In this document: one piece after another, positions 1 through 35,863 of the stretch | Layout of the letters: each line of letters starts with the position of its first letter | Numbering within the stretch: position 1 is the stretch's first letter | Assembly (NCBI GenBank): GCA_000182565.2 | Contig: KQ257463.1 | Direction: 5' to 3' (one strand) | Length of the DNA stretch: 64,000 nucleotides | Source of the DNA: Spizellomyces punctatus DAOM BR117 | Lineage: Eukaryota | The notes under the pieces: generated by a model | Told to the model about the DNA's origin: nothing | Seen by the model: only the letters and a program-made list of their open reading frames with translations | The model's database searches: none | Translations under genes and position numbers: made by a program

Positions 1-562
1 TCATTATAATAGCGATTTAGCAGATCATGCTAGCCGGCGGAGTGACAAGCGATAGCTAGCTGATTGCCGAGTCCGATAACCGACGCCATTGGTGCCATAT
101 ATATATATACGGGCGTTTTTCCCCGTCCGCCTTTGGTATGATACAATGAAACTGGTAATCGTACAGAACAGGAGATTCTGGAATCGAGGGTTCTGAGGAT
201 TTGTTTATATTCATTTCTTATTGCCATGGCAACAAACTAAGCCTTGTCTGCGCGCACGTTGTCTATTTATCCATTTTTGAATGGCCGCTGAAGTACTGCT
301 AATAAGGTTTGGGGTTTGAAGCCCCCGTCGGTTTTCCTTTGCCGTTTTTTTTCATCTTTCATTTTGGGAGATTTGCATTGCGAGACGATTTCGAGATCAA
401 GTCCTAGAGGGTTGTTCACCCTTCTTCTCCTTGCTCTCTTTTGAAGAGGTACCCCTCGCCTATGACGTAGAACGCGTCACACCGTGTCCATCGTCTAAAA
501 ACGGTTTGTAGGTTTGTCCAGCTTTTGTCCCTCCCCAGGAATCCTTCTCCTCCCCGCATACC

Positions 563-2162: not shown

Positions 2163-2554
2163 GCACTTTGTGTTGGTTAATGTTTGTGGTTTTTGTGATT
2201 TGTATGCTGCTAGGAATGGACCCGCTACAATATTTTGTAATCCTTTTCAATGTTATCGATAATTATTTTTTTATGTAACATGTCTGAAAGACAGAAAGTG
2301 TACACAAGTCCTGCACTAAGTGACATCATTTCAAAACACCTATCATCAACCAAGAAAAATGCAATTTTCTGTCACAGCACAGAACTAGAGGAATACGAAA
2401 AGGAATGGATACAGGAAAAATAAAAAAAGTGGCTGACTCCCCTCCGAAATTTGTATTTCGCATCCAGAGCGTAAAGGGGTCGTCCGTCTAACTCCAAAAC
2501 CAGGTTCAAGTGGCTCGCCGAGTGTCCCCCGTTGACCAAGATTATCCATCATCA

Positions 2555-5500: not shown

Positions 5501-7916
5501 ATTCGTACTTCGTCCTTTGATCCATTCTTCAACCCTGCGAAATTCTTTGTAAAAATAGCGGTGTAATACTTCTTCTGAAGCTCTGACATTGGTATTCGAA
5601 GAATCAGCTCCGTCTTGCCGGGGAGGGAGGTCTCAACATCCTTCTTTAGTCGTCGAAGCATAAGCTTCGTAAGCAGATTGTGCAAGTACTGGATCTTTCC
5701 CTTTTGCTCCTCATTATCTGTCGCGTCGAGGTCAATCTCCAGGTCCATGTCGATACTAGCACCGGGCATCAGGAACTGGATTAAAGCCATAAGCTCCTGT
5801 ACGTTGTTTTGCAGGGGCGTTCCAGTGATCAGCAAGCGGTTGGCAACCATATATTCTTTCGCAAGCGACTGGTGAAGTTTGGAGTCCTCGTTTTTCAATC
5901 GGTGCGCTTCATCTACTGCTAGAAATGCCCATTTGATTTTGTTCAAATGTGCCTTATCTTGTATGATCATCTCATACGTCGTTAAGAGGACATTGAACCG
6001 CAATATCCGCTTTGCAGGACGACCCTTTTTGGCGGTATACGAGTAAAACTCGTATTCTCGAATGATGCTGCGTCCCTTTGCGTTTCCTTGATATAGAACA
6101 ACGTTCATATCTGGTGCCCATCTTGCAAACTCGCGCTGCCATGCGGAGATGGTACCAAGGGGTACGACGACTAGGAATGGCCCGTATACTTTCATAATAT
6201 GGAAGAGATATGAGAGGAACGAAACAGTTTGCACGGTCTTTCCTAAACCCATTTCATCTGCCAAGATCCCGTTTTCGTTCCTATGCCACAGATCCGCCAT
6301 CCAGTTGACTCCAATCAACTGGAACTCTCGGAGTTCACCTCCCACCAAAAAGTCCGCTTCCCGGAAAGGCTTATATGGTGGGCGATGGTCAGGCTTGTAT
6401 TGCTCGCTTCGACTTGGCACTTGCTGACTGTTGGACCGATCCAGGAACGAATCGATCTCGGCCTGATCGTCGGCCAATGACGTTGCTGACTCCCAGGTAC
6501 CTTCCTCGTATCCTAATCCCCGCCACTTACAGTAATACTGCGTGCCGCTCGGGTTGTCCTCATCGGGGCTTACCACGCGACTGGCAATGATACGATCCAC
6601 CTTCTTGTGTTCCTCAAGGAGATCCTTCTTATCGTTGATCTCCATCAATACACGTTCTCTATCTTCTTCAGTGAGATAGGGGTCTTCGAGAATGGCCTGT
6701 CGTTCATTGAACTCTTTGATGAACTTGTCAATCTTTTTGAACCCCTTAAGAGTCTCCAGGTACTGGACGTCACACCACTGCAGTTCCCGATACGAACGAC
6801 CTAGCCACTTGACCAGATATTGACTTTGCTCCACAGCGTTGCCATCTACCATATGTAGCATTTAGAAGGTGTCTTGCTAAGATGAGAAAAAGAGAGACAA
6901 TTGAGGGACATACCTTCGTCTTCAACCTCCACCGTACGTTGGTCGAAAAACCCATCTATCACATCACCTAAGCCAATGCGTCCTGGGTCAGCCAAGTGTT
7001 TACATCGTCACGGCACACGGTTTCCTTACCTTCTTCTTCTGGCGGATATGCTTCCGCATAGACTTCAGGCCCCCTCTCTTCCAAATCAAGCTCTTCGTCC
7101 GCAGCATTTTCATTGTAGTCCAAAGCGGGGTTTCGCTGTCGGGTGGAGTATCGCGGAAAATCATCATCCCACAGGTAAAGGTTCTGCTTTTGTCGCTTCT
7201 TCTTGGCATTTTCTGATTCGAAATCAGAGCCAGACACCTCTTCCTCTTCTGAAAAGTCTCCGATGAAATCGTCTGGGTCCTCTGAAAACAGGATCATCTT
7301 TAGGACCCAGGCGATTAAAACAACTCCATCTGCCGCCTATGCACCTTTGCGGCGATTCATTTGTGCCCGCGATCGTAGCTTGCCTTTGCGTTGTTTGCTC
7401 TTACGCCGTGATCCATAGTCGTCGTCATCCTCCTCATCATCACTCGGACTGCCCTCTTTACCAGCCTAATATAGAGCAGAAAGTTATAACGAAATGCCGA
7501 GTGGTTGTTAGTCCATGCAATAAGAACGACTCACAGCAGTGAAGCGATTCGGTTGCGTCCGCGCTCTGCCCGATCGTCGAAGGCCATACAAATCTGGGTT
7601 TTCTTCAGCGTATGAAAATTCAGATTTACTGGACCGTATTGTACGTTTTCTGTTCCTTGCCGATGGCTTGTCGTCCGCCGAGCTTTCACCTTCAGTGATG
7701 ATCTCATCTTGCTCTGGCTCACTTTCACCTTGAACGTAGTCATCGTCTTCGCTCTTGTGTCCATTCTCGTGGTTATCGCCAGGCTCGCTAAAATCACTTA
7801 GATCATCATCAACATCAATGTCGCCATCCGAACCGGTAGTGGGCCGCCCCGGGATTAGGTCGGCCTCGGGTATCTGTACATCCTCATCGGAGTCGAATAT
7901 GTGATCTGTATCCGAG
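2555..7916 (-). CDS. CHD1: Chromodomain-helicase-DNA-binding protein CHD1/Hrp1-like (multi-exon; first exon/start upstream of 7916 not located)
   Basis: NPDLYGLRRSGR N-terminal motif and two chromodomains (YLVKWLGRSY, YYCKWRGLGYEEGTWE). SNF2 ATPase motifs [16 protein letters not shown] and [18 protein letters not shown]-like WNTKDDAMLLVGVYRHGFGNW. Confidence 0.92.
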
Positions 7917-9093: not shown

Positions 9094-10551
9094 TTACCAC
9101 ATTCCAGCAAACGAACCCTTTAGGTTAAGTTGCAGCGGACCACCAGCCGCAAACAACCCGGAGCGTGATGGGTTGTACTTGAGGGTATATATTGCATTCC
9201 GAACATCCGCTCCCTGAAAATGCGCTTCGTACATTGCATCGCGCAAAAGCCACCCTTCACCCGTCTGCAACCAGGCGGTCATGTCAGAAGGGATGCCAGC
9301 CAAGATGGCAGTTGATCCACGGCGGATCCGAGATCGTCTCGCATATCCAGGCGAGAGAGGGGAGGACGCAGACCGAGACAAGGGTGAGGGAGACGATGGG
9401 GTTGACAATGCCGACTGTGATCTGTGCGAGCTTGGCCAAGCAAGATATTTTCCACCGCGCATGTCGTAAAATGATACTCTGCCCTTGCCACCACCTACTG
9501 CAAGGACTGCATTGTCGAAAGCCAGCGATCGCACGCCCCATCCATCATCACAGCTCTCGAATGTGTGGACAACTTGGCCCGCTCGCGGATCAACAAGAGA
9601 AACATGATTCGCGGAACCGATCGCGTAAATGTGCTCACTATCATCGAACGCCAAACAGCAAGTCTCCTCGGTATAACGCAAAGGCACATTAGTGGATGGT
9701 TTAAACTTGTTGGCGTCCCAAATTTTGACAAAACCATCCGTAGAGAGAGTGGCGATGTTGCTTTTTGCAGTATTGTAGAGCATATCCCGTACTTTGCCTC
9801 GGTGTTCACAAGCCGAAACGGTGGCGGAGAGAAGGGATATACGCGGACCATTCAACGGAGAGAGGAACTCTGTCCCACTCTCGGAACAAATCATCCACTT
9901 TTTGACGGTCATATCGCGAGCTCCAGAGACCAGAACGTTATCACTCATCCAGGCCACGGAAAATACCATATCAGTGTGCCCTTGGAGAACTGCAAGAGGT
10001 TCAAATGACGGCAACTTGAAGATTTCAATCGAACCAAGAGGTCTTCCAACCCCGACAGCAATCAACGTTCGTGACGGATTGACGGCCATGCATCGAATTC
10101 CTGTTCCCAAATCTGGCAGCACCTGCCGCTGCATCAGACCCTTTTCTCCGACAGCTTGCTCAGAGCCCCATCCAGGTACGTGAGCTTCCACCAATGGTAT
10201 TTGCACTCTTTTCCCGTTTCCAACATTCAACACGACCAACGCGTTGCATTTTGTTCCCATTACAACGTGATCATCAGATAACCAAGTCGCCGCAAACACC
10301 TTGTCGAGACCCGCGGTATCAAATTCGTGCTCGTCTGTCAATGAGCCTGCCAATTTTCGCGACACATATCTTGCCATATCCGCCTCCAACGAATTGCGAT
10401 GCGTTCTAATCCGCTGTGCCCGTCCTCGTCGAGCCACGCCATTGCACTCGCGAGAATTTAGACATGCGGCAATATTAGAAGGTTCGCTATGCGGGTATGT
10501 CCAGGTGGGTTCAAAGGGTTTCCCCATAAACGGGAGCTTGAAGACGACCAT
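9094..10551 (-). CDS. DCAF12: WD40-repeat DDB1-CUL4-associated factor 12-like protein (intronless, 485 aa)
   Basis: VFAATWL..VMGTKCN, MAVNPSRTL, GHTDMVFSVAW, TGEGWL and the C-terminal LFAAGGPLQLNLKGSFAGMW match DCAF12 signatures as I recall them. Confidence 0.75.
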   Translation of the reverse strand: MVVFKLPFMGKPFEPTWTYPHSEPSNIAACLNSRECNGVARRGRAQRIRTHRNSLEADMARYVSRKLAGSLTDEHEFDTAGLDKVFAATWLSDDHVVMGTKCNALVVLNVGNGKRVQIPLVEAHVPGWGSEQAVGEKGLMQRQVLPDLGTGIRCMAVNPSRTLIAVGVGRPLGSIEIFKLPSFEPLAVLQGHTDMVFSVAWMSDNVLVSGARDMTVKKWMICSESGTEFLSPLNGPRISLLSATVSACEHRGKVRDMLYNTAKSNIATLSTDGFVKIWDANKFKPSTNVPLRYTEETCCLAFDDSEHIYAIGSANHVSLVDPRAGQVVHTFESCDDGWGVRSLAFDNAVLAVGGGKGRVSFYDMRGGKYLAWPSSHRSQSALSTPSSPSPLSRSASSPLSPGYARRSRIRRGSTAILAGIPSDMTAWLQTGEGWLLRDAMYEAHFQGADVRNAIYTLKYNPSRSGLFAAGGPLQLNLKGSFAGMW

Positions 10552-11102
10552 AGTAGTGTGCCAGACCAGACGGGCTATGACCAGCGGACAGCAGGCGATG
10601 CAGTTCCAGAGCGAAAAGGAAATGCACGGAGGGGTATCCTAAATAAATAAATCTTTCTCCACCCGGGCCTTCCGGACAAAACGCCCAACCGGTTGATTCC
10701 AACCCACACCTCCGAAGTTTCAGCGGGGGTTCTGGACTGCGACCCAAAACGAACTCCGACTCAACAAAAAAAATCTGCAATCTCCCCCCATCGCCACCCA
10801 TCCGCTCATGTATCAAATCTGCCTGATAAGTTTCTAAAAATGGAACTTTTTCATTACATATTTGTAGTTGTAACTGCAAATTTTAGTGAGACACGTCAAG
10901 GGTTCGACGCTCGCTCGGTGCAGGCTTCAAGGGGCACCCGAACCCTTTTTTTTTCGGTCCAATATCGCACCATCATTGCAGTCGCTCTGTATTCCACGCA
11001 ATGTCTTTATGAAATCCAAATGGGTATACTAGGCACAGCGATTCTACCACTCACTCTAAGCACTACATATATCATGGTAGGGAAATATGAATAAATTGAC
11101 AA

Positions 11103-13811: not shown

Positions 13812-15535
13812 CTGGGTAGCCAAACAAAATGTTTAAAAGAAAACCTCCCGCAAAGGAGTGTCAAATGGGACAGTTACTTGTGCATAGCGCTAAGCCGCGT
13901 GCAAATGAACGCGGGTTTTTCATGGCCTTTTGACATATTTTGCCGAGTTGCAGGCCAGAGATCTTGCACGAGATACATCAACATGCTGACTATATCCGAA
14001 TGCCAGTTAACAGACCACAGGATACATCTCTATATGTGAGGTCTTTCGCACACTTGCCTTTCCGCCAACGGGCTCATTCATTCAAATCCATCTCCTTTTC
14101 AATTTTCCAGACGTCAACGAACGTAACCTGTAGTGATGTATATTTCTTTCCTCCCTATATGCTACCTTTGAGGAAGGTTCAGAAGGTTGATGCGTCCGTT
14201 GCGCTTTCAGTGGTCACCTACGCCTAGTTTCCCCCCTTTAGAAACAGTCTCCACAAGTCAAAACCATCAAGGTTTTTATGATATTCATTCCACTGCAATA
14301 AAGTCTGTTCAAAAACAGCTGAAAGATCTCTTGGATGTAGAGAGGAGGAATCCACCATAAACTTTTGCCTATCACCGAGCCCGCAAATGACGATCCATGG
14401 ACTTGACCTTCGGTCTTGTTGAGCACAAAATTGCCTATAATCTCGGTGGACGGGAAGTCTCCAAAAAGAGATCAAGCTGACTATGACTCTGACCTGCTGG
14501 TCCTTTCATGAAAGAGTAGATGTTATTTTCCGAATGGTACGCAACGGCAAGTTGCCCGCTGGTACAATATCATATCTCACAGATGTATACCTAATGAGGA
14601 TGACACTGTCATCAGTTATGGAGCCGCCATTTCTAGGATGGCCATTTTCATCATCAGAGACCAAACGGGAAACTATACATCTTTGCAAATGACATGCGAC
14701 ATTCATTCGTAAAAGATCCCAACATCAGTGCCAATTCTTACCGCTGCACTTTATCAGATATGCGACAAGCGGCTGTACGCGCTGATATGGACAAAATCCA
14801 ATTTGAACACCCACGAGCAGAAAGCTCTATTGGCATGCTAGGAACAAAAAGTAAAACACTCACATTGCTCCTTCCTACTCAAACGACATGGACGTTCCAT
14901 CATGAACTCTTTCCAAATGGTATGAGCTGTAACTGCGCCCTCCGATCGCTTACCATACCAGACGTAAGCGTCTGCACGTGAGCATAAATCAGTTGAAGCG
15001 CTTGTACAAGCACCAAAGGTTGGATTGAACAATATCGCCTTTACTGAAAAATACCCAGCAAAATCTGAGTATAAGAGAAATACATTGAATTGTGTGATTG
15101 CATAAAGTGTCAAAAGCAAATGTACAGAAAATGTTATCGACACGGTCCAAAAATGGCGTTATATCAAGTTAAATGATAAGGAGAAGGCATGAATATATGG
15201 AGTCGTATGTGTGCACCTGGATCTGAGAAATGTTGAGTGCGACCCAATAGTGGAACAAGAAAAACAAAAGACTGCAAAAGTTTCCTGATGACCAGAAGAG
15301 GATGAAGGGTTATCTCGGTCATTGAATTAGCTATCTTTGCATGGTATTAAATACTGTATCAGCCCAAGAGATTACTGGTCAATGTATGTCAAGCTGTCGC
15401 TGGCAGAAGCTGCCGACAGTTTATCGTATCGGAAATACAAGAGCAATCCGTTTGAATTGCTAGTGTGTGATTACGTAATCTCGGAGTGTTTGTTCACCAG
15501 CCCACCCTTACAGTTGATCAGGAAGACTTTATCAA

Positions 15536-17440
15536 ATGGCTGATCAGAATATACAACCAGAGGAAGACAGCGTGGTGCGTAAATCAGTATATTTAAGACT
15601 CGGATGTGGATTCTGATTTTCTGCTCTGCAGAATGGGGAGTTGCGGGAGAATGTGGACGCAGTCGAACCGAGCGCAGAGTCACAAGCACAGCAAGTTCCC
15701 GCTCAAGGAGAGAGTGATGAACCAGGGCAAGGGGAGCAAGCGCAGGCGGAACCCACACAGGATCAGCAAGGACAGGCAGAACAGACCGAATTGCAGACTG
15801 AACATGCGCAGGACGAGGTGATCCAAGAAGATCAATTGCAAGGCGAGCCAACACCAACAGACCAACTTGGTGCACAAGATAATGAAATACCCACCGAAGA
15901 GGAACAAAGTATTCCTCTGACAACTGATGCCACTGAAGCCGACGCACTGCACACGCCAGCAAGATCACCGACTCCAACAGCGCCCCTCCCTTTGTCACCA
16001 GAGCCATCCCAACAAGATACTCAGTTCGTTCCTCCCACAGCTCGCACACTCCAATCCCCACCCCCTTCAACACCCACCTACACATTTCAAAACACGGATC
16101 CATCTACGCTCGATGCCCCAATAACATTGACGACTCCGCTCTCCCGCGTCGGATCGGGCGCCAGTACTCCAGTGGAGGTTGGGTACATCCCACCTACAAC
16201 GCCAACACAAGAAGAGAGTGTACAAGAGGAGGAGCAAGTTGTGCCTGAGCCGATTCCACAGGGATTGGATAGAGAAGAGTTGGTGGCAAAGATTCGGGCC
16301 GAACTAGATGGAAAGGATAAATTGCAGGTGAGGAATGTGGCTCTACAGAATCGGTTAGGAGAATATTTCAGAAAGAAACGAGTGAGTGTTTTTCTTTTGA
16401 TGGCGTTGACGGTGTGAGTATTGGGTATTAAGCGATTCTGTAGACGGACGAAACGCGCGAAACGGATCCAAAGCCGCCGACCGACCTGACAACGCGTTAC
16501 ACTACCTCACTCTCCACCCTCCTCACATTGAACCAAACGCTTCAAGCCTTGCATCAAACCCACACCAAGCTCTCTACCGACTATTTGACCAAACTCACTC
16601 AAAAACAGGAAGAAGCTGCGGCGAAAGCAGCCGAATTCTCCACCTACAAACGTGCCATTGCCCAAGCGGCTGAGAATAGCCGGACTGGCCGAAAAATTGC
16701 TCCAAAGGTTTTGGAAGGGCTAGAGATCAATGAGGAAAGAAAGGAAGCCGAAGTCATTGAGGTTCGATTGGAGAATATAAAGTTACGGAATAGGCTGCGG
16801 AGAAGCGAAGGATTGTTGAGGCAAAAGGTTTGTTTAGGTAAACTTTTGGCCACCTCTTAAAATTGCTGACCGTTTCCCAATAGGAAGAGCTAGCGGATGG
16901 TCTGCACCTGATCGACTTTGAACAACTTAAAATTGAGAATGCGACCTATAACGAAAAAATCGAAGATCGCAATGAGGATCTCCTTAAACTCCGAAAGAAG
17001 ATCACTACCATCGTCCAGGTTCTTACGCATGTCAAGGAAAAGCTGCATCATCTTTCCCACGAGACCCGGGTGTTACAGGACACATTAGGGGGATTGGATG
17101 AGCAAGTCATGAGGAAACGGGATGAGCTGCCGGTCAAAAAAGGAGAGAGGGATAAATTGAGGAATGAGAATGCAGAATTGCGAAAACGGGCTGGATTGCT
17201 CGGATCGGTTGGGCTGTTGCGGGATTTTGAGAAACATGCTGTATGTTTCAATTTTCAGTTTGGCATTGTAGCATCTTGCTGCAGGTGTGATTCATTTTTT
17301 TTTTGTTCATAATGCAGGACGAAGCACAGGCCTTGCACGGCCAGATTAATGCTCTACGAACACGCCATGCAGAGCTCTCTGCGGAAATGCTTGGTGTCAA
17401 AAGAAAAATTCAAAAGGCACAGATTGTAGGAGCAATATGA
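15536..17440 (+). CDS. CCDC96: Cilia-associated coiled-coil protein CCDC96/CFAP184-like (DUF4201), multi-exon
   Basis: Acidic Q/E-rich N-terminus, then coiled coil with EELADGLHLIDFEQLKIENATYNEKIEDRNEDLLKLRKK and LLRDFE. Confidence 0.8.
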
Positions 17441-17698
17441 TTGCCACAAAGTACGTTTATATTTGGAAAAACTAGGAGAGAGGAAGAAAAACACAAGGGA
17501 AAAATATAGGGAGGGGATATACTAGTAGAAACCAAAGAGTAGGATATACACAAGAAGAGACACACACAAGTGGAGGCTTTGCAGAAAAGCAACAATAGAA
17601 TGCATTTGTGCAGGTTAACGGTCGGTCAAAAAGAATATGAGGTTCATTGAGGAAAGAGCTTTTTGTGCCTGTGCATACGAGAGAGAGATGTCTAAGTC

Positions 17699-18428
17699 CT
17701 ATGTACGATTGGCGAAATGCGCGACATTGGCGAGAATCATATCATACCCCAGTTTAATGATAATGTAGCCGCCGACACCAGCAGCGACAAACGCGCCAAA
17801 GAGTTTGATAATGAATCGACTAGCGTTGATCAATTTTAGCTCTACCGATATTCAAGAGGAGCAAACAAAAGGGCAAGATACGCTACCATCCGTCGTTGCC
17901 TTCCCAAATCTCAACGCCCCATACCCACCATTTCCATGTTGCCTTTCCCTCCAATCTTTTCCTGTTTTTTGTTTTTCTCCTTTTTCTCAATCCCGGTTCC
18001 GATGAGGTATCCGACCCACACACTGCGGCGCTGCTGCTGCTGCAAGTTTTGTATCCGTCCTGGTCTTCTGGTGGAGTGGGATTGGGAGGGACGTCGACAA
18101 TGGGCAAGGGAAGAGTGCAGTTTGCCGTGTTTACAAAAGGCAGCGGCGTGAGACTTCTCCCACTCGACAGAGAAATGATTTCCAAGTCTGAAAAGTCCCT
18201 TTTAGTAATTTCGACCCAGGACCAGTCTGTCCATGCAGGAGGCGGGGTTGGAGGCGGGCGAAGGAGAGCTGTGATGTGAGGAGAGAGAGGTGTGGCCGTC
18301 ATTCCATTGTCCAACGTGGCAGAGTGCTTTGTAAACGTTTCTTCTTCTGTCGTTGCCAATGTCCCTGTGGAGGCAAGGTCTTCGAGTCGTTCAATCAGCG
18401 TAGGTCGATACGGCGGCGGCGTATGCAT
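17699..18428 (-). CDS. Hypothetical protein with a basic patch and C-terminal hydrophobic segment (2 exons)
   Basis: ORF from MHTPPPYRPT. A downstream open frame FIIKLFGAFVAAGVGGYIIIKLG ends at TAG 17699-17701. The splice junction is not firmly resolved and no family was recognised. Confidence 0.4.
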
Positions 18429-18805
18429 GTGTGTGTTTTTGTGTGTGTGTAAATGTGTATATATGTGTGTTTGGGAAAAACAGTCAAAAAACACAAGAAT
18501 AACGACGATGATGACGGGAACGAGTGGCATATGTCACATTACAAGTCACATTATCCAGCCCTCCTGTACGACCGTATCATGAGATAAGATTCAATTTCAT
18601 ATTAAAAATAGATGCAGCCACTGGATCGAATGAGATGAAATGCAAGATGCCTCCCTTGATTTTCAAATGAATGGTTTGCATTATATGCAGCCATGAACGG
18701 ATTGCAATTACTATCCCTTGCGGCCATCTATGAGAGGAACTACTCTCCTGTAGCAGTTGCCACCTGCATGACGCTCCATGACTCAATATATCGACTCAGT
18801 TTTTC

Positions 18806-18813
18806 TATATAAA
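18806..18813 (+). promoter_or_regulatory. TATA-box-like element upstream of the stand-alone omegaRNA
   Basis: TATATAAA followed by a pyrimidine-rich tract, the same layout as the putative Fanzor promoter at 19708. Confidence 0.35.
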
Positions 18814-19192
18814 CCCCCCTCTTCCCCCATCTTGTTTCTTCCTCCCTCGACTCTCGAAGCATCTGCCCAATGCTCAAGTCCCATCATGAGAATGCCGCTC
18901 TGGTGCCGAGGACCTCGTCCGCCCGACAAATACAACATAACCCCTTGCAAACGCTGCTATATTGCTACGATCGCAGGTATATCTTGCTGATTTTTCCCAC
19001 GTGCATATTCCCAGTCCAATTCTGATTTGACTAGTATCTGAAACGTCCTCCGACTAAGAATTTCGGAATCAAAGGGCTAGTAGGATTTCTCTCGTGGTGG
19101 TGGGCGCTAGTTACCCGGTTGACCAACCGTTATCGCATGTGTAATTGTTAGCGATAGTTTTTTTACTTGTAAGGACTTGGTTAGCTAGTTGG

Positions 19193-19281
19193 CTTTTCCG
19201 AACCGGTTCTCGCCGGTTCATTCCCTGGTGTGCGCGGCACGACATCGGTTTTTTGCTCGCACACTATTCAATCCGTTAAGC
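19193..19281 (+). ncRNA. Stand-alone Fanzor omegaRNA-like RNA (74-nt scaffold 19193-19266 plus putative ~15-nt guide TTCAATCCGTTAAGC)
   Basis: First 38 nt are 36/38 identical to the element's omegaRNA (21678-21715). Same 74-nt length, ending in CACTA. Stems GAACCGG/CCGGTTC and TGGTGTGCG/CGCACACTA are kept, with compensatory changes. Confidence 0.8.
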
Positions 19282-19505
19282 GTCATTCCCTTTTCAAATG
19301 CAAACGTTCAATTGAAGGGAGATAAAAGTCTTGTGATGACTATGATTGAGTAAGCAATATCTCCATTTTAGGAAGGCTTTCACGTGAACACTATTGAGTG
19401 GTTCCTTTTTGGAACGGAGATCCCTGCACATGTGTAGGATCCTTTTTGTAGTTTTTAGGTAGGAGTCGTAGCTGGCAGTAGCGGTAGTAATGTCTCTGCT
19501 TCCCC

Positions 19506-19603
19506 AATGGCTGCCTAGAGGCTGCCTAATGGCTCCCTGATGGCTGCCTAATGGCCGTCTATCATAGTCTATACGAGTCCATCCTAGTCTATCCTAGTCC
19601 ATA
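19506..19603 (+). repeat. Degenerate minisatellite: 5 x 11-bp (AATGGCTGCCT) then 4 x 10-bp (ATCCTAGTCY), resuming after the transposon at 21751-21770
   Basis: aatggctgcct/agaggctgcct/aatggctccct/gatggctgcct/aatggccgtct, then atcatagtct/atacgagtcc/atcctagtct/atcctagtcc. Right flank reads acgatagtct/acgctcgtcc. Confidence 0.8.
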
Positions 19604-19631
19604 GTGCGGAGCCGATGGGTATTGGCACTAG
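19602..19631 (+). repeat. Left terminal inverted repeat (includes terminal TA / probable target-site duplication)
   Basis: 30/30 reverse-complement match to 21722-21751. Confidence 0.95.
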
Positions 19632-19707
19632 TACATAGATTCCAACCAATTTAATCATAATTTTACTCGATTTAGACTCATGAACTATGGTTTGATCCAA
19701 AAAATCC

Positions 19708-19715
19708 TATATAAG
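19708..19715 (+). promoter_or_regulatory. TATA-like box of the Fanzor gene
   Basis: TATATAAG about 50 nt upstream of the ATG at 19765, followed by a pyrimidine-rich leader. Confidence 0.45.
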
Positions 19716-19764
19716 TTGTCGTGCCCATTTTCCCAGGCTTTCATCTTTTCCCACAGATATCATC

Positions 19765-21663
19765 ATGCCGCCAAAGAAAAAGCAAAAGCTTGAAAAACTC
19801 GACAAACCTACTTGCTTACATACCTGCAACAAGACTTCCTTTGCAAAAGCTTTCTTGCCAAACGAGACCTACCGGCAGCGTCTTCTAGATTACATCGCCA
19901 TCATCCATCAACTCGCTGACCACGCTTCCCACGCTCTCAAATTCTACATCCTATCTGCACCAACCTTTCCCACGGTAAATGAAGATACAATCGAAGCAAT
20001 TCTCTATCTTCTCAACAAAGGAGAGGCTTGGCATCCAAGAAAGGAAGCAAAGAAGGCATGGCGGGATTGTTTGCTGCCATATGTTCAACGGTACTGCCAA
20101 ATCGTCGGCTTTGTTCACCCAAATCTACGAGGCGAGCAGCAATCAGTCAATTACCTGACAGCGAGTATGATGACGAACCTGAAAGTCAACGTTCAAGAGC
20201 ATTTCATGCAGATGCTCCTTCGGTATATCAATCTGCGGCTCGACGTGAAGGGACAGAAGCAGCGACTGCCACTGAAAAGCGATGCGCGGCAAGCTTTCTT
20301 TACTCGGCTACGCTACTTGAAGTCGGTTTTCCTTTTCGAAACTATGCCAGAATCACTGGATGACTTGAGCATTCTTGAAAACGAGATTTTAGAAGAGATC
20401 TGGACACTTAACCTGCCATTTCCTGATCAAGACAAGCCGCTTGCCTACCTCATTGCCATCGACGCGATGTCCTTCTTTCCTGCATACTGCCGACTGTCAA
20501 AGTTGTTCGAGCAGCAAGGTTTTCAACAGTTCAGCGCGATACCTCTGCGCCGCTCTCTCATCCAAAGCCATATTCGCATCGACACGGTCATTCTCTACGC
20601 CCACATCCTCTGCATCACCCGCCAAGAAGCAGAAGCCGTAGAGAAGGTCGATTTATGGTTGCGCGTCTGTAATCTACGTACCAAAGCTTTTCGGTCTCGC
20701 TGTGGTATGCATTTTGAAGGCTCGATCACGACGGACGGAACCTCGGTGTCTGTATACCTAAAGCACCCAGAAGCTGACAAGTACGGAAAGCGCGGAGCGA
20801 GAAAGTCAGCAAAGGCTCTAGCAGCTGAGGTGAAGGCGCTGTATGTGGAAAACAACTTACCTGCTTGTCGAGCAGCAGAGAATGTCGTCGTTATCGACCC
20901 AAACAAACGCGACATTCTCTACTGCCAAGACAGTAATGGTACAACGTTTCGCTACACCGCCAATCAACGCTGCAAGGAGACTGGAAGCCGTCGATTTGCA
21001 AAAGAACGGCAGCGGATGAAAGCTGGCGGTATTGACCTCATAGAATCACGTATCCCAAGCCACAAGACGATGAACCTCATAGACTTCATGCGTTACCTTC
21101 TCGTTCGCCGCGCTGATTGGGATCGTCGAAAGGAGTTCTACTCCCACCCTGCTCATACTCGATGGAAATGGCACGCATTCATAAACCGTCAGAAGAGCGA
21201 ATCAGACCTCATATCCAACATGCGCAACAAGTACGGCGAAAACTTCACCATTGTGATGGGTGATTGGAGCGACGCCGGTCGAACTGCGAGATTTCAGACC
21301 TCATCAAAGACGAAAGGTTGGCGCACCCTCTTAAAGCGGAACAGGATCAACTGCTTCCTTCTCGACGAGTACAAGACCTCATCTGTCTGCCCTCGCTGTT
21401 TGGCCTCATCTGATGACTTCCTTGAAAAGGACTTCAAAACACGACCTCATTCAAGACCTTGGCGCCGTCGCGAAGGCAAGATTGAAAAAGTCCATGGATT
21501 GCTGGGTTGTACCAACCCTAACTGTCAGCAAGCCTGGACGATGCGCTACTGGAACAGGGACACGCTGAGCACCTGCAACATGCTGATGATCGTGCAATCA
21601 ATGTTGGATGGACACGGTAGACCAGAGGTGTTCAGTCGGAGGAGTGTTCCAGCCGTAGCGTAG
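19765..21663 (+). CDS. Fz1: Fanzor1 RNA-guided DNA endonuclease (TnpB/Cas12-like RuvC, SpuFz1-like), 632 aa, intronless
   Basis: N-terminal NLS PPKKKQK. RuvC-I VVIDPNKRDIL (D378), RuvC-II LLDEYKTS (E535), Zn finger CPRC...CTNPNC (C542, C545, C582, C587), RuvC-III WNRD (D599). The sequence closely resembles Spizellomyces SpuFz1 as I recall it. Confidence 0.95.
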   Translation: MPPKKKQKLEKLDKPTCLHTCNKTSFAKAFLPNETYRQRLLDYIAIIHQLADHASHALKFYILSAPTFPTVNEDTIEAILYLLNKGEAWHPRKEAKKAWRDCLLPYVQRYCQIVGFVHPNLRGEQQSVNYLTASMMTNLKVNVQEHFMQMLLRYINLRLDVKGQKQRLPLKSDARQAFFTRLRYLKSVFLFETMPESLDDLSILENEILEEIWTLNLPFPDQDKPLAYLIAIDAMSFFPAYCRLSKLFEQQGFQQFSAIPLRRSLIQSHIRIDTVILYAHILCITRQEAEAVEKVDLWLRVCNLRTKAFRSRCGMHFEGSITTDGTSVSVYLKHPEADKYGKRGARKSAKALAAEVKALYVENNLPACRAAENVVVIDPNKRDILYCQDSNGTTFRYTANQRCKETGSRRFAKERQRMKAGGIDLIESRIPSHKTMNLIDFMRYLLVRRADWDRRKEFYSHPAHTRWKWHAFINRQKSESDLISNMRNKYGENFTIVMGDWSDAGRTARFQTSSKTKGWRTLLKRNRINCFLLDEYKTSSVCPRCLASSDDFLEKDFKTRPHSRPWRRREGKIEKVHGLLGCTNPNCQQAWTMRYWNRDTLSTCNMLMIVQSMLDGHGRPEVFSRRSVPAVA

Positions 21664-21677
21664 ATTAGTTAGATTAC

Positions 21678-21766
21678 CTTTTCCGAACCGGTTGTCGCCG
21701 GTTCAATCCCTGGTGCGGGTGCTAGTGCCAATACCCATCGGCTCCGCACTACGATAGTCTACGCTC
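21678..21766 (+). ncRNA. Fanzor omegaRNA (scaffold 21678-21751 overlapping the right TIR, plus ~15-nt flank-derived guide CGATAGTCTACGCTC)
   Basis: Starts just after the Fanzor stop codon. Hairpins GAACCGG-ttgtcg-CCGGTTC and TGGTGCGG...CCGCACTA. The layout is that of known Fanzor/TnpB right-end RNAs. Confidence 0.88.
21722..21751 (-). repeat. Right terminal inverted repeat
   Basis: CTAGTGCCAATACCCATCGGCTCCGCACTA, the reverse complement of 19602-19631. Confidence 0.95.
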
Positions 21767-22014
21767 GTCCATGGCTGTGTGTCCATTCAATCTTGTAGTG
21801 TAGAAAGAGCCGCTGGTTTTGGGGGGCTGACGTCTGTGGCTGTGCCATGCTGTGGGATGGCGCAGGTTGCTAAACTCATGTGACACGCGTATGAATCAAT
21901 TTTTAACTTTAAGGAAAGAGCGACAAAAAGTAGAAGGACCGTTTCCCGTTATCTTTCCCGCTATTTGACGTTCGAGCGCCATTTCCCAACTTTCAAGCAT
22001 CTCGAGGGCAGGCA

Positions 22015-23643
22015 ATGATGAAGGCACTGCTTTTCATCGCCTTGGTCTCTGGTGGAGCGTGGGCTCAAAGTATGTACTGGGTGATGCAGCGAGCAGTCTT
22101 GTTTGAATTTGTATACTGACAAATTCACCCACTTTTCAGGCCCATGCGAGCTTACGGACAGAATATGTCTGACTCAAACCACTCTGCAAATCGGATCGCC
22201 TTTCTCCCTTTACCTCTATTTCGCTGGATTTCAACAAAAGGATCCGGCCAAATGGACAATATCCCTTTTTAAGGGAGACTTGCGGGCAAACCCTCAAACC
22301 GATCCTTGCCGTCCCGGCCAACAATTGATTTACAAGTGGGAAGCACCCCCGTTTACCGTCGTATCGACAAATGTTGCCAAAGGGGATTTGGTAATTGATC
22401 CAAAGGTTGTGAATACCATTGCTGGCGACAATCAGTACTTTTTTCAAGCCACGGATGGGACGCAAGGAGTTTGTCCCATGGGGCCCTTTGCAGGGGTGAC
22501 GCACGTCCAACTGGGTGAGTACATTTAGACTGGAAAAAGTTGGCACACGACGCTAGGCAAGCATTGCCAGCCTTCTAGTAGGAAAACAATGCTGCATAAG
22601 AGTACGGTGACACGAGTGCAAACCTCTTATGTTCAGGTTTTCTCACGCGGGAACGAAAGGATCGCATGTTTTTGCAAGACATTGAATTTTATCGTGATGG
22701 CTATCGCTGTATATTTCCGCCTGCATAGCTAGGCGCTATTTTATACAAGGTACTAACGTACTGGCTGTGGTTGATAGCTCTTGCGACTACCTCCTCCACA
22801 ACAGCACCAGCAACATCGACCACGTCGACCGCCGCACCCACCACCGTTAAGGAAGCTCCAGCCCAAACACCGCCAGCAGGTGTCTTCCCGACTGGGCCTA
22901 CTGCTCCCGCCACTGCAAGCAGCTCCTCGTCGTCATCACCAAACGTTGGATTAATTGTGGGTGTCATTTTCGTCGCATTGATAATATTATCCGCTGGCGG
23001 ACTCTTCTTCTTTCGACGAAAACGAAAGAACAAGCGAAACTGGGGAATGGAGGGCGGCGCAGGTGCTGCTGCTGCGTCTGCCGCAGTTGTGGGATCGTCC
23101 AAGCCAAACATGTCAGAACGAAAGGAGACTATTGGATCATTGGCTCCATCCGAAAGTGCCTCGCTTGCCAGGCTCGTTTCTATACACCCAGATCCAGAAG
23201 ACGAAATTTTTGTTGGACCGCCAATACCTGCCTCATTGGCTAGACCGCAATCAGCAGCAGCTTTGGCAGCCGAATCAACAGCCACCGCTCCTCTCCTTCC
23301 ATCTTTGACCACTCAACCAGAAATCGCCACACCCCGCCTCAGCTCCGCAACCGACCCATTCTCGGATGTTCATGCAGATCCCTTCTCCGATCCCATTCCA
23401 CCACCACAACCTCCACCATCGTCATCACACCGCCGTTCCATTCTGGCGTCGCTCCACTTGGACCGTGACTTGGTCTCTAAAACTCCTGTGTCTTCCAGCA
23501 GCACGTCTGCAAACGATCGACATGCCTTTGCTCTGATGGTTGCACAGGCGTTCCGAAAGGAGCTTAACGATCCACAGATGGAGTGGGATCGAAAAAGTGG
23601 TGATTCAACAGAGAGTGACAGGGATCAACCGTCTGCCTCGTAG
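22015..23643 (+). CDS. Single-pass type I membrane protein (signal peptide, Cys-containing ectodomain, S/T stalk, TM, basic stop-transfer); Mid2/Wsc-like topology
   Basis: MMKALLFIALVSGGAWAQ signal peptide, then an intron. T/S/A-rich stalk, then VGLIVGVIFVALIILSAGGLFFF followed by RRKRKNKR. Confidence 0.7.
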
Positions 23644-25162: not shown

Positions 25163-26962
25163 ATGACGACCCTGCATTACACGCCCACCAGTCCAGAAGT
25201 GGGTGTGTATCTGTTCATTGGCGAACGCGGACTACTCTCCTCGACCCTTCGTGGTTCATTCTCTGTCCCGCATGACATTTTGGAAGTACTTCAAGAGGGG
25301 AAGATCGACGTTGTGTCGACCTGGGAGAAAGCTCGCGACAAACGTGTTCAATATGTTGTAGCGCATTTGGCCAAGGAGCGGAGCAGAAACATGGGGTTCG
25401 TGAGATCTGATTTGGTTCACGAGATTGTCGCGGCACAGACACCGAAAGAGGGCGATGGTATGTCCAAAGTTGTCGGCATGTTCAGGAGCGCGTGATCTTC
25501 TGATAACCAACATGACATCCAGTAAAGATTACTTTGGTACTTGAATCTGGAGAGCAAGTATTTCCTGCAGCGTGGTATGTGGTTTTTTACGCTTGGAGTG
25601 CTATGAAAGAAAGCGAATCTGAACAATTTTGGCATTGTGCTCTATCTAGTGCGGTGGCCAGAGCCTTCCCTCTCTACTCCCGTAAAGCCAGCGTCGCCAA
25701 ACTCAAGCCCCGGAATGTTTATGTGGATTTCACAGTACCCGGTGGAGTGGAGGACGCAACATATAAACGATTGAATGTTGTCACCAATGCCATCCGCACA
25801 GCTGCGAGATTGGTTGATACCCCTTGCGGAGATCTGAACGTTACCACTTATGTATCTGAGATTCGTTCCCTGGTGTCTCCTTTCCCATCCGTTACAACCA
25901 CTGTCATCAGTGGGGAGGAGCTGCAGCAAAAGGGACTGAACGGAGTTTACTCTGTCGGCAAAGCAGCCGTGAACCCTCCTGCTCTTGTCATTCTTACGCA
26001 TACGCCAAAGACCGCTACAATCGCAGCACGTCCAGTGTTTGTTGGTAAAGGCATTGTATACGATACCGGCGGTTTGAGTCTCAAATCTGGCCCGGGTATG
26101 GTGGGGATGAAGGAAGACATGGCTGGCAGTGCAGCGTGTTTAGGGGCCTTTTTGACCGCGGTAGAACTCGGTCATGAAGGTACTTTCAGCGTTGTGCTTT
26201 GTCTAGCAGAGAACGCAATTGGGTCAAGAGCGCAGAGACCCGACGATATCATTCCCATGTTGTCTGGTAAAACGGTCGAGGTAAACAATACCGACGCGGA
26301 GGGGCGGTTGGTCCTTGGAGGTAAGAAGCGTCCATTGCAATGGCCGCTTGGTTACTCTGCTGACGTCTACATCTCACCGTCCACAGATGGGGTCGCATAC
26401 GCGACAAAGTATCTTGATCCAACTCACGTTGTCGATATTGCGACATTGACTGGGGCTCAACTGATCACGACGGGCAAGAAGCACGCGGGTGTCTTATCCC
26501 GCAACGCCGATTTCGAAAAGATCGTTTTGGACGCTGGACAAAAAACCGGAGATTGGTGTTTCCCGCTATTGGTTCGTCATGTCATATTTTGTATCAATGC
26601 TGTGCATTACACGGACTCATCCCACTTTTGCTATTCGCTCCAGTATGCGCCAGAGATTCTAAAAAAGGAGTTTGATAGTAAAATTGCCGACATGCGGAAC
26701 AGTGTGGCGGATCGGATGAATGCCCAATCGTCTTGTGCTGGGCATTTCATTGAGGAGCATCTTGCAGCGGAATGGGACGGTCGTTGGGCGCATGTCGATA
26801 TGGGTGAGTTTTTGGTTTTCAATTTTACTTTGGTGGGAGCTGTGATGTTGAGTACGGTTTGTTTTGTCGTTACTAGCTGGGCCGGGTGCAAAAGATCAAC
26901 GTGCAACTGGATTTGGTGTCGCCTTATTGGTCGGTATCTTGGACGAGATCAAAAAGAACTAA
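25163..26962 (+). CDS. NPEPL1: M17 leucyl aminopeptidase, NPEPL1-like (multi-exon)
   Basis: VGKGIVYDTGGLSLK, MKEDMAG, NTDAEGRL, DIATLTGAQ, ARAFPLYSRK, DMRNSVADRMNAQSSCAG. Confidence 0.85.
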
Positions 26963-27151
26963 ACTTGTGTATACATGTCTGGACACTTTGGACGAGGAGG
27001 ACATGTGTGCTTCCTTGATAAAGTAAAAACTGAAATATATATCTTTCTTGACTTTATATTGAATCAATTGTTCATTCCAAGTGTGTTGTCTAAACCCACA
27101 AAATCCAAAAAAAAACAACGAACCCAATGCAATACCAACTTTTCCACATGT

Positions 27152-34165: not shown

Positions 34166-35863
34166 CTACATATACGAATTAGGTCTCCTTCCAACCCGGC
34201 CCCAACCCCGTCCATTCCGCTCATATCGCATTTCTTCCTCAGATTGATGCATAGCGTGATAAGGTATCGGCCATGAATTAATGTAGGTTTTTGAGTAAAA
34301 CGACGTCAAGTCTTCGGGTGGTGAATATGGCTCGTTGTCCGACGGGTAATTGCATAGGAGATCATGTGGAAGACTCAGGTTGGTCGACATAATGTCCGAC
34401 TCTCCATGCGCTGGTGCAGATGGGGGTACAGGGGCAGGAGCCAGTGCAGGGGCCGGTGGTGGTGGACTGGGCGGTTGTTGTGAATTTTCTGCAGGGATTT
34501 GCTGTGCCTGGTGTTCTGACGACTCTTCTTCCCGATTATCCGCTTTGCTTCCCTGCTTGGGCTTTGCCCCTCCTTTCCCATTCGGAACGTGACATCCAGC
34601 TGCATCATTTCCAACATGCCTCTTCAAAGCATCACTTCTGGCGAATCCCTTCGAGCAGTTCGGGCATATGTAGGGCCTTTCGTTGTTATGCAGCCGCATG
34701 TGCCGTTTCAGGTCATGATTGCGACGAAAAGATAATTCGCAGTAGGTGCATTTGTGGGGCTTGACTGAGCAATGGGTTTTTGCATGAGCTCGAAGGTTTT
34801 GCGGACGCGCAAAGACTTTTGTGCAGTTTGTGATGGGGCAGGGGTATACGGGGGCTGAAGGTGCAGTGGGAATCGAGGGAGCAGGTGATTCTGGCTCAGA
34901 AATTGTGGTAATCACCGATACCTCCCTTGTATCCTCCAGTAGCCACCCAGGTATGTCCTTTTCTATTTCTTCCACATCCTCCCTAGCCAGGATCTCTTCG
35001 GTACTGATTGTCATATTCGGATTCTGCGATGGATGTCCAGATTGTTCGTCCATCAATCCCGGGTGAGACACAATCAAGTCAGGACTGTGCGATCGTGATA
35101 GCGACAAGGCTGAAACTCCATTCTCGACAGCTGATATTGGCCAGGCAATACTGACATTGTCACTCATTATCGGTTCAGGTCTTATCCCCGCCATTTCTCC
35201 TCCAAATTCGTTAAAATCTAGCAGTCCCGCCGTTTCAGGTGGCCCTATATTAATCGCTTCTCTGCTGGCTGTGGCGGTTGGGTAGACCGTGGCATTTTCA
35301 TACAGCGTAGGAGCGGTAGGGGTGTGCATAGGGCGTGGTGGCAGAGTCTCATAGTGAGGAACATGATATTCCGGACGCCCGTCTTGATTTATTGAATAGT
35401 TGAAATTTGGTTCATTTGGCGACAGGACGTCGGGCTTGGGCGCAAAGGTGTTCACGTACTCCATCTCCTGTATTGGGATGTATGGCTCCGCATATGGAGC
35501 AAAAGGGTCGAATGGAGATTGCGGTAGCAATGATGATGGGGTTATGGAGACAGAGTGGGTTTGCGCCGTCGACAGTATCGACGATGACCGAGAACCATCA
35601 TATTGGTATGCTGGTGTTGGGTAAGCTTGTGAGTTAGGTAGCAGCAGTGGTTGGAGAGGCAGTAGATGATGCTGTTGATAAGGTTGCTGCTGATGCTGCT
35701 GCTGATGCTGTTGATGATGTTGATGGTAAGGTTGATGATCTTGTCCGAAAGTTTGTGGCCCATGGGCATGTGCGAACGGATACACGCCTTGCATATCAAA
35801 TGTATGATGTTTATGCGGCGCAAAATGCGGTGGTTGTGGCGACAATACTTCAAGCGACGGCAT
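34166..35863 (-). CDS. C2H2 zinc-finger transcription factor (three fingers, poly-Q/H activation-like region)
   Basis: CPITNC..FARPQNLRAHAKTH, CTYC..FRRNHDLKRHMRLH, NERPYICPNC..FARSDALKRH. Start taken at MPSLEV. Confidence 0.85.
   Translation of the reverse strand: MPSLEVLSPQPPHFAPHKHHTFDMQGVYPFAHAHGPQTFGQDHQPYHQHHQQHQQQHQQQPYQQHHLLPLQPLLLPNSQAYPTPAYQYDGSRSSSILSTAQTHSVSITPSSLLPQSPFDPFAPYAEPYIPIQEMEYVNTFAPKPDVLSPNEPNFNYSINQDGRPEYHVPHYETLPPRPMHTPTAPTLYENATVYPTATASREAINIGPPETAGLLDFNEFGGEMAGIRPEPIMSDNVSIAWPISAVENGVSALSLSRSHSPDLIVSHPGLMDEQSGHPSQNPNMTISTEEILAREDVEEIEKDIPGWLLEDTREVSVITTISEPESPAPSIPTAPSAPVYPCPITNCTKVFARPQNLRAHAKTHCSVKPHKCTYCELSFRRNHDLKRHMRLHNNERPYICPNCSKGFARSDALKRHVGNDAAGCHVPNGKGGAKPKQGSKADNREEESSEHQAQQIPAENSQQPPSPPPPAPALAPAPVPPSAPAHGESDIMSTNLSLPHDLLCNYPSDNEPYSPPEDLTSFYSKTYINSWPIPYHAMHQSEEEMRYERNGRGWGRVGRRPNSYM

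What the first reader, a model, noticed from the sequence alone, without database searches (positions are those of the whole stretch)
19602..21766. Complete eukaryotic RNA-guided nuclease system: intact Fanzor1 plus omegaRNA inside a TIR transposon
Seen: a 632-aa intronless ORF with an SV40-like NLS, a complete RuvC triad (D378, E535, D599) and a C4 zinc finger, bounded by perfect 30-bp inverted repeats, with a two-hairpin scaffold running from just after the stop codon into the right end. Known: Fanzors are eukaryotic TnpB/Cas12 relatives (OMEGA systems), and Spizellomyces SpuFz1 cuts dsDNA next to a CATA TAM using a right-end omegaRNA. Inference: this is a probably active SpuFz1-family copy. 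The system class is published, but this variant may differ from the characterised enzyme.
Basis: partly seen in the sequence, partly recalled or inferred. Interest (0 to 1): 0.9.

Follow-up and report, generated by a model that had tools for sequence, protein, structure and literature searches.

The report
Known SpuFz1-family Fanzor transposon copy
This is an intact copy of the SPu-1 transposon of the chytrid fungus Spizellomyces punctatus, carrying a close paralogue of the already characterised RNA-guided nuclease SpuFz1 and its guide RNA, so the reading is correct but the system is already published.

Summary
It comprises a 632-aa uninterrupted ORF (19765-21663, +) and perfect 30-nt inverted repeats (19602-31 and 21722-51). 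CATA lies at the left end. A two-hairpin RNA scaffold (21678-21751) is followed by a 15-nt flank-derived guide.

The protein matches the solved SpuFz1 structure (8GKH) over its full length (E=0). It is 87% identical to SpuFz1 (SPPG_07727) and 97% identical to SPPG_09423 of S. punctatus DAOM BR117. Its exact sequence is already in NCBI/UniRef.

D378/E535/D599 map onto SpuFz1 D383/E541/D606. All 6 TAM-reading residues, the 4 zinc-finger cysteines and the N-terminal basic peptide are kept.

Bao & Jurka (2013) described SPu-1 as the prototype Fanzor element. Saito et al. (2023) catalogued 19 full-length and 134 "ghost" loci in this genome and showed the ωRNA, the CATA TAM, cleavage and the structure. 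The verdict is therefore: interpretation supported, novelty nil ("already known").

Two small extras were found. This copy naturally has Arg at the site of the engineered activity-raising C310R change. A ghost-type ωRNA right end without a left repeat lies at 19193-19266.

In the one RNA run laid, the ORF body had almost no reads. Scaffold reads cannot be assigned to this copy.

The parts
19600..19603 (+). CATA: two flank bases (CA) plus the first two bases (TA) of the left repeat; this is the TAM of SpuFz1
   Evidence: Read directly. The paper reports a conserved CA upstream of the 5' IR and a 5'-CATA-3' TAM.
19602..19631 (+). Left-end inverted repeat (30 nt perfect; 33 nt to 19634 at 97%)
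19708..19715 (+). TATATAAG, a TATA-like box 50 nt before the ATG, with CCAAT at about 19649 (inference only)
   Evidence: Read directly. Function was not tested.
19765..21663 (+). Fanzor1 gene, 632 aa, a paralogue of SpuFz1. Features: basic N-terminus at residues 2-9; RuvC D378/E535/D599; zinc finger C542/C545/C582/C587
21678..21751 (+). ωRNA scaffold of 74 nt. Layout: 5' UUUUCC, stem-loop 1 (8 bp), linker, and stem 2 with an 8-nt loop whose 3' side is the right repeat
   Evidence: fold, z = -3.98 for the 74-nt stretch; compensatory changes; description
21722..21751 (-). Right-end inverted repeat (30 nt perfect)
21752..21766 (+). Presumed 15-nt guide, made of right-flank DNA; unique in the window
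   Evidence: One search found no other match beyond chance. Guide length of 14-15 nt is from the paper.
19193..19266 (+). Second, ghost-type ωRNA scaffold and right end. It has the same stem-loop 1, a stem 2 with a 3-nt bulge, and no partner left repeat
   Evidence: The paper describes ghost ωRNAs as having a 3-nt bulge instead of an 8-nt loop.
19267..19281 (+). Presumed guide of the ghost-type scaffold
   Evidence: Inferred by position. One search found no other match beyond chance in the window.

Best explanation
The stretch 19602-21751 is one full-length, apparently intact copy of the SPu-1 (Spu-1) transposable element of Spizellomyces punctatus.

Its single gene encodes a Fanzor1 RNA-guided DNA endonuclease that is a close paralogue of the characterised SpuFz1.

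By analogy with SpuFz1 (shown for that enzyme, inferred for this one), a roughly 90-nt ωRNA is made from the right end. It consists of the 74-75-nt two-hairpin scaffold plus 14-15 nt of flanking DNA as guide. The protein binds it, enters the nucleus through its basic N-terminus, and reads a 5'-CATA TAM with R92/Q125/Q126/N129/R286/Y340. It then cuts double-stranded DNA that matches the guide, using the RuvC site D378/E535/D599.

The left junction reads CA|TA and the guide is the right flank. The natural target is therefore the empty insertion site (CATA followed by the right flank), as in the TnpB homing model.

The element carries no transposase, so its mobility must depend on one supplied in trans.
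For: - Protein identity:
  - Full-length match to 8GKH SpuFz1, E=0.
  - 87% BLASTP identity, or 89.5% over 627 aligned columns, to P0003.
  - P0003 is identical to the 8GKH Fanzor part.
  - 97% identity to SPPG_09423 of S. punctatus DAOM BR117.
  - The exact 632-aa sequence is on record in NCBI, UniRef, nr and eukprot.
- Residue conservation (residue lists from the paper):
  - 4 of 4 Mg/catalytic residues are the same.
  - 6 of 6 TAM residues are the same.
  - 3 of 3 residues contacting the first ordered ωRNA nucleotides are the same.
  - 9 of 10 backbone-contact residues are the same.
- Element ends: perfect 30-nt IRs and CATA at the left junction.
- RNA scaffold:
  - It folds as two hairpins with an 8-nt loop in stem 2, as published.
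  - Across this scaffold, the ghost-type copy and metagenome relative L007, 9 of 25 predicted pairs keep pairing through double changes.
- RNA reads: run X8 has depth 66 over 21626-21726 in one direction against 3.5 in the other.
- Literature:
  - Section 7 of PMC10432273 was read in full, other parts as passages.
  - PMC3627910 was read as passages. It gives SPu-1 as about 2,100 bp with 33-bp TIRs, TA TSDs, and 17 full-length copies of which 9 are intact.
Against: - Activity of this particular copy is untested.
- In RNA run X8 the ORF body (20111-21300) had a depth of about 0 to 1. This was at 98% likeness, with about 6% of the run read. No full-length mRNA was seen there.
- Only the first roughly 350 nt of the gene had reads, and these ran in the direction opposite to the scaffold reads.
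- The library's strandedness could not be calibrated.
- The scaffold is shared by many copies, so the scaffold reads cannot be assigned to this locus.
- One DNA-backbone contact is changed (SpuFz1 R260 to Q255).
- The local Pfam copy gave no family at E <= 1, so kinship to TnpB rests on the solved structure and the literature.
- No transposase lies in the element.
Confidence: 0.9

Rival explanations
1. It is a structurally intact but transcriptionally silent or otherwise inactive relic. The sequence is preserved only because the copy is young, and no nuclease is made from this locus.
For: RNA run X8 shows a depth of about 0 over most of the ORF. The family has many copies. In one search, only 5 of the 18 S. 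punctatus protein entries in the table keep all 14 checked sites. The 18 are P0001 plus the 17 named entries among the 47 proteins examined, so decay is common in the family. No transposase lies in the element.
Against: - There are no stops or frameshifts in 632 codons.
- Every catalytic, TAM and zinc residue is kept.
- The IRs are perfect.
- Only one RNA run was laid, only about 6% of it was read, and the growth stage is unknown, so this is weak evidence of silence.
- Gaps in other entries may be gene-model errors.
Confidence: 0.25
2. The right-end hairpins are only a by-product of the terminal repeat (transposase-binding DNA structure) and do not form a functional guide RNA at this copy.
For: The 3' side of stem 2 is the inverted repeat itself, so part of the fold is imposed by the repeat. 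Two of three metagenome relatives' downstream regions did not fold better than shuffles: L002 z = 0.11 and L005 z = -1.35.
Against: - Stem-loop 1 lies outside the repeat. It is conserved in the ghost-type copy and keeps pairing through 2 double changes in L007.
- For the family, small RNA-seq, RNP pull-down and cryo-EM show the 75-nt scaffold plus guide.
- If numbering starts at 21678, the nucleotides the paper names as contacts (U5, C6, C7, G20) are present.
Confidence: 0.05

Closest known systems
SpuFz1 (SPPG_07727; PDB 8GKH and 9CEU-9CEZ), Saito et al. 2023, PMC10432273
   Same: Same genome family and same domain order. It shares the catalytic D/E/D plus N, the TAM-reading residues, the zinc-finger cysteines and the basic N-terminus. 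It also shares the 30-nt IRs, CA before the left IR, and a two-hairpin scaffold with an 8-nt loop in stem 2.
   Different: - Length is 632 aa against 638 aa.
- There are 66 substitutions and small indels, giving 87% BLASTP identity.
- Arg305 sits where SpuFz1 has C310, and C310R is one of the engineered activity-raising changes.
- V295 sits where SpuFz1 has D300, and Q255 where it has R260.
- The guide differs because it is locus-specific.
SPu-1 element / SPu-1-1p, the prototype Fanzor1 (Bao & Jurka 2013, PMC3627910)
   Same: About 2,100 bp (2150 bp here), a single ORF (633 aa for the consensus protein, 632 here), 33-bp TIRs and putative TA duplications.
   Different: None detected at the level I could test.
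SPPG_09423 (P0002), the closest annotated paralogue
   Same: 97% identical, 616 of 632.
   Different: 16 differences including a 2-residue gap, clustered in residues 366-404 around the first RuvC motif. In that stretch the window copy agrees with SpuFz1 instead.
Bacterial TnpB of IS200/IS605 (OMEGA system)
   Same: It works alike: a RuvC nuclease guided by a right-end RNA whose guide is flank DNA, with the TAM at the left end (paper discussion).
   Different: - It is eukaryotic and has a nuclear-localisation peptide.
- The REC and RuvC domains are enlarged, and the ωRNA has no pseudoknot.
- It has TIRs with a putative TA duplication instead of the hairpin ends of IS200/IS605, and no TnpA.
- Pfam OrfB_Zn_ribbon was not detected here.
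Ghost Spu-1 elements (134 loci in Saito 2023; 126 unique scaffolds in PMC13434818)
   Same: The scaffold at 19193-19266 has the ghost-type stem 2 with a 3-nt bulge.
   Different: Published ghosts have two IRs about 550 nt apart. Here no left IR was found in 16001-19192: best local score 18, against a shuffled mean of 17.9 and maximum of 22.

Membership tests
Fanzor1, SpuFz1 / SPu-1 family | Full-length sequence similarity to SpuFz1 | tested here: met
   E=0 and 1267 bits, query 2-632; 87% identity; P0003 equals the 8GKH Fanzor part
Fanzor1, SpuFz1 / SPu-1 family | RuvC catalytic D-E-D (plus the Mg-binding N) | tested here: met
   D378, N380, E535 and D599 align with D383, N385, E541 and D606. 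D378, N380, E535 and D599 are invariant in 19 relatives.
Fanzor1, SpuFz1 / SPu-1 family | Zinc finger in the NUC domain (CxxC ... CxxxxC) | tested here: met
   C542, C545, C582 and C587 are aligned and conserved. Metal binding itself was not tested.
Fanzor1, SpuFz1 / SPu-1 family | CATA TAM: reading residues present and motif at the left junction | tested here: met
   6 of 6 residues are the same. CATA lies at 19600-19603. TAM dependence of cleavage is not testable here.
Fanzor1, SpuFz1 / SPu-1 family | Element of about 2.1 kb with 30/33-nt terminal inverted repeats and TA at both junctions | tested here: met
   compared
Fanzor1, SpuFz1 / SPu-1 family | Right-end ωRNA: scaffold of about 75 nt with two stems, then a 14-15-nt guide | tested here: met
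   Fold and shuffles; compensatory pairs in 3 sequences. This is in silico only.
Fanzor1, SpuFz1 / SPu-1 family | The ωRNA is expressed from this copy | tested here: inconclusive
   Run X8 has depth 66 over the scaffold bin, but the scaffold is multi-copy and the strandedness is uncalibrated.
Fanzor1, SpuFz1 / SPu-1 family | RNA-guided, TAM-dependent dsDNA cleavage | not testable with these tools
   Shown for SpuFz1 only
Bacterial TnpB (IS200/IS605, IS607) | Match to the OrfB_Zn_ribbon / TnpB profiles | tested here: not met
   0 Pfam families at E <= 1. Only distant relatives P0051-P0053 carry PF07282 in the precomputed list.
Bacterial TnpB (IS200/IS605, IS607) | Association with a TnpA (HUH or serine) transposase | tested here: not met
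   No other gene lies between the IRs. The paper also found none in Spu-1 elements.
Tc1/mariner DNA transposon (autonomous) | DDE transposase between TIRs flanked by TA | tested here: not met
   TA lies at both junctions, but the only gene is the Fanzor. At most it is a non-autonomous element.

The most novel reading that the evidence does not exclude
This paralogue may be functionally distinct from SpuFz1. It naturally carries Arg at the position of the engineered activity-raising C310R change, plus 65 other substitutions, and could be a more active natural enzyme.

The ghost-type right end 335 bp upstream of its left repeat has no left repeat of its own. It could be an orphan, transcribed guide-RNA gene that directs Fanzor proteins in trans to a site unrelated to any transposon copy.
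Probability: 0.12. Interest if true: 0.4.

Novelty: already known. Interest (0 to 1): 0.15.

Why it matters
Fanzors are the eukaryotic RNA-guided nucleases now being developed as compact genome editors, and SPu-1 of S. punctatus is where they were first seen. This locus adds nothing new in kind.

It is one of the full-length copies of a family whose loci, RNA, TAM, cleavage and structure are published. Its practical value is small.

It is a natural variant that could be compared with SpuFz1. Examples are the natural Arg at the C310 position, and the identical TAM-reading residues, which predict the same CATA TAM.

The finding does show that the first-stage reader can recognise such a system from raw sequence with base-level accuracy.

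Tried and rejected
- **Own genome search:** not possible, because no genome is held for this window. Copy number in the genome therefore comes from the papers only.
- **tRNA origin of the scaffold:** I suspected one because of a T-arm-like motif. ARAGORN found 0 genes in the window.
- **Rfam:** over 18800-22200 at E <= 1 there was only one chance-level match (Flavivirus 5' UTR, 20.7 bits against a gathering score of 80, E = 0.46).
- **Left repeat for the ghost-type right end:** pattern searches, an inverted-repeat scan of 15000-19300 and a local alignment over 16001-19192 found nothing above chance.
- **Other copies in the window:** tblastn and blastn of the element against the window found only the element itself, plus the 51-nt scaffold similarity.
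- **Targets of the two guides in the window:** nothing beyond chance.
- **Bacterial promoter and terminator scan:** at chance level and irrelevant to a eukaryote.
- **Published ωRNA letters:** I searched PMC13434818 for a scaffold word and found none in the main text. I could not compare the scaffold with the published one letter by letter.
- **RNA holders:** no RNA holder was listed for the stretch. X8 came in by species label only.
- **Metagenome relatives L002 and L005:** their downstream regions did not fold better than shuffles, and no IRs were found around them or around L006.
- **Earlier notes of this scan:** none exist for this genome.
- **Supplementary Data 1 and 2 of Saito 2023 and Supplementary Data 1 of PMC13434818:** Whether this exact locus and this ghost-type scaffold are listed could not be checked.
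Full report
**Observation**

The window holds an uninterrupted ATG-to-TAG frame of 632 codons at 19765-21663 on the + strand. The only other ORFs of at least 60 aa in 19000-22500 are 101 and 106 aa long. Both lie inside the main frame in other reading frames.

The 30 bases at 19602-19631 recur as a perfect reverse complement at 21722-21751. None of 100 shuffles of the window gave a match. The pairing extends to 33 nt with one mismatch.

The element from repeat to repeat is 2150 bp. The left junction reads CA|TA and the right junction reads TA|CG.

The RNA from 21678 to 21766 folds into two hairpins (-32.6 kcal/mol, z = -3.39, 0 of 200 shuffles as good). The 74-nt part up to the end of the repeat gives z = -3.98.

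**Identity of the protein**

- phmmer against all PDB chains gives the MBP-SpuFz1 fusion of 8GKH at E=0 and 1267 bits. It covers query residues 2-632.
- Parasitella parasitica Fanzor1 is the only other hit, at 8.8e-47.
- In the 5.8-billion-protein search, 53 proteins passed E <= 0.001. Of these, 17 are named as proteins of Spizellomyces punctatus DAOM BR117.
- The closest is SPPG_09423, with 616 of 632 residues identical.
- SPPG_07727 (P0003, 638 aa) is 87% identical. Over residues 2-638 it is letter for letter the Fanzor part of 8GKH.
- The window's exact 632-aa sequence is itself on record in NCBI, UniRef, nr and eukprot, on a contig of 636,814 bases. It is therefore an annotated single-exon gene of a public assembly. 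By the company it keeps, that assembly is the S. punctatus reference.
- The local Pfam copy returned no family at E <= 1. The database's precomputed label for the whole family is PF26935, which that copy seems to lack.

**Functional residues**

I aligned the window protein with P0003. I then looked up every residue that Saito et al. name in the text I read.

| Residue group | Conserved | Mapping (SpuFz1 to window) |
|---|---|---|
| Mg/catalytic | 4 of 4 | D383/N385/E541/D606 to D378/N380/E535/D599 |
| TAM-reading | 6 of 6 | R96, Q129, Q130, N133, R291, Y345 to R92, Q125, Q126, N129, R286, Y340 |
| Contacts to the first ordered ωRNA nucleotides | 3 of 3 | W570, R414, R387 |
| Backbone contacts | 9 of 10 | R260 is Q255 here |
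| Zinc-finger cysteines | 4 of 4 | aligned |

- In total there are 66 substitutions over 627 aligned columns (89.5% identity), plus small indels.
- Of the five sites whose mutation raised editing in human cells (D300R, C310R, D487K, E498R, T513K), two differ here. V295 replaces D300, and R305 replaces C310. This copy therefore naturally has the C310R state.
- In a table of 47 relatives, 18 are S. punctatus entries: P0001 plus the 17 named ones. Five of the 18 (P0001-P0005) keep all 14 checked sites. The others lack parts, either through real truncation or through gene-model error.

**The RNA**

[quoted passage not shown] It is followed by a 14-15-nt variable guide, is transcribed across the right repeat, and has an 8-nt loop in stem 2 of canonical ωRNAs. 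The window's fold has exactly this shape, including the 8-nt loop.

If numbering starts at 21678, the nucleotides the paper singles out (U5, C6, C7, G20) are in place.

For independent support I fetched relatives from metagenome contigs. Of 86 pattern matches, 21 loci encode relatives.

- L007 is an internally deleted relative. It has terminal repeats beginning GTGCGTAGCC, CATA at its left junction, and a two-hairpin right end (z = -4.06, 0 of 200 shuffles).
- I aligned the window scaffold, the second window scaffold and L007. In this alignment 9 of 25 predicted pairs keep pairing through changes on both sides in at least one sequence, two of them in stem-loop 1. Three sequences make a thin sample.
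- The downstream regions of L002 (z = 0.11) and L005 (z = -1.35) gave no support.

**Mechanism**

Shown for SpuFz1, inferred here: the protein binds the right-end RNA, recognises 5'-CATA, and cuts matching double-stranded DNA.

The left junction supplies CA plus TA, and the guide is the right flank. The site the RNP would recognise is therefore the unoccupied insertion site. This fits the TnpB-style homing idea that the authors discuss.

Bao & Jurka read the TA at both ends as a target-site duplication. No transposase lies between the repeats, as the authors also report for all Spu-1 elements.

**Expression**

No RNA run was listed as holding the stretch. One RNA run of the same species label (X8, raw reads) and three contig runs were laid at 98% likeness.

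| Region | Depth in X8 | Direction of first mate |
|---|---|---|
| ORF body, 20111-21300 | about 0 to 1 | not applicable |
| First part of the gene, 19707-20110 | 8-57 | on the minus strand |
| Scaffold bin, 21626-21726 | 66 (3.5 the other way) | on the plus strand |

- Only about 6% of the run was read, and reads were at most 60 nt.
- 10,763 of 11,322 laid reads fitted only in part.
- The library's strand rule is unknown.
- The scaffold is shared by many copies.
- The run therefore shows that scaffold-like RNA exists in the organism. It does not show that this copy is expressed or silent.

**A second right end**

At 19193-19266 (+) there is a second scaffold.

- It is 95% identical to the first over the first 38 nt and has the same stem-loop 1.
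- Its stem 2 has a 3-nt bulge (z = -5.05). The paper describes this shape for 'ghost' ωRNAs.
- Published ghosts have two repeats about 550 nt apart. Here I found no left repeat in 3.2 kb upstream.
- RNA depth over 19000-19300 in X8 was 425-3092.
- Most of these reads carry variants of other copies (for example A instead of G at 19045 in 778 of 875 reads, and T instead of C at 19203 in 889 of 1117 reads). They speak for the family, not for this locus.

**Comparison and novelty**

SPu-1 of S. punctatus is the element in which Fanzor was first described. Bao & Jurka 2013 give it as about 2,100 bp with 33-bp TIRs, TA duplications, and 17 full-length copies of which 9 are intact (passages).

Saito et al. 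2023 counted 42 Fz loci (19 full length) and 134 ghost loci in this genome. They also showed the ωRNA, the TAM, cleavage, human-cell editing and the structure (section 7 in full, other passages).

A 2026 paper analysed 126 unique ghost scaffolds (passages). PMC11423790 was seen only as a search listing and abstract.

This locus is a member of that catalogued set in all tested respects. I could not open the supplements to tick it off by coordinate.

It works like bacterial TnpB. It is not a member of the IS200/IS605 family, since there is no profile match, no TnpA and different ends.

**Verdict**

The finding is already known. Interest is low.

Noticed in passing
window 19193-19281 (+): A ghost-type ωRNA scaffold plus presumed guide lies 335 bp upstream of the Fanzor element's left repeat. 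It has no partner left repeat within 3.2 kb. It may be a 5'-truncated or solo ghost Spu-1 right end.
   Followed up: partly
window 19000-19300: RNA depth in run X8 is very high (425-3092, peaking above 6000 near 19074-19078) over the sequence just upstream of, and including, the ghost-type scaffold. Most reads carry variants of other copies, so an abundant RNA of the ghost family exists. Its ends and strand are not determined.
   Followed up: partly
window 19707-20110: RNA reads cover only the 5' roughly 350 nt of the Fanzor gene, in the direction opposite to the scaffold reads. They could be antisense or short 5' transcripts. The library's strandedness is unknown.
   Followed up: no
window 19506-19602 and 21752-21775: The element sits in short tandem repeats (an 11-nt unit at 19506-19555 and a 10/20-nt unit at 19557-19602). 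The right flank resembles the same TAGTCTA-type unit.
   Followed up: no
protein residues 366-404 (window about 20860-20976): The 16 differences from the closest paralogue SPPG_09423 cluster around the first RuvC motif. In that stretch this copy agrees with SpuFz1 instead, which suggests exchange between copies.
   Followed up: no
L007 2849-3417: A metagenome contig carries an internally deleted relative. Only the last 157 codons of a Fanzor1 gene remain between 26-nt inverted repeats. It has CATA at the left junction and a two-hairpin right end whose start overlaps the stop codon.
   Followed up: partly
window 2555-6861 (-), 9094-10638 (-), 25516-27018 (+), 34166-36001 (-), 41203-42969 (+), 52451-53860 (+): The neighbourhood is ordinary gene-dense eukaryotic DNA. 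It holds a CHD1-type remodeller, a DCAF12-like WD40 protein, an M17 aminopeptidase, a C2H2 zinc-finger protein, a type III glutamine synthetase and a glyoxal-oxidase-like protein. The element lies between genes. A signal-peptide-like start follows at 22016.
   Followed up: no
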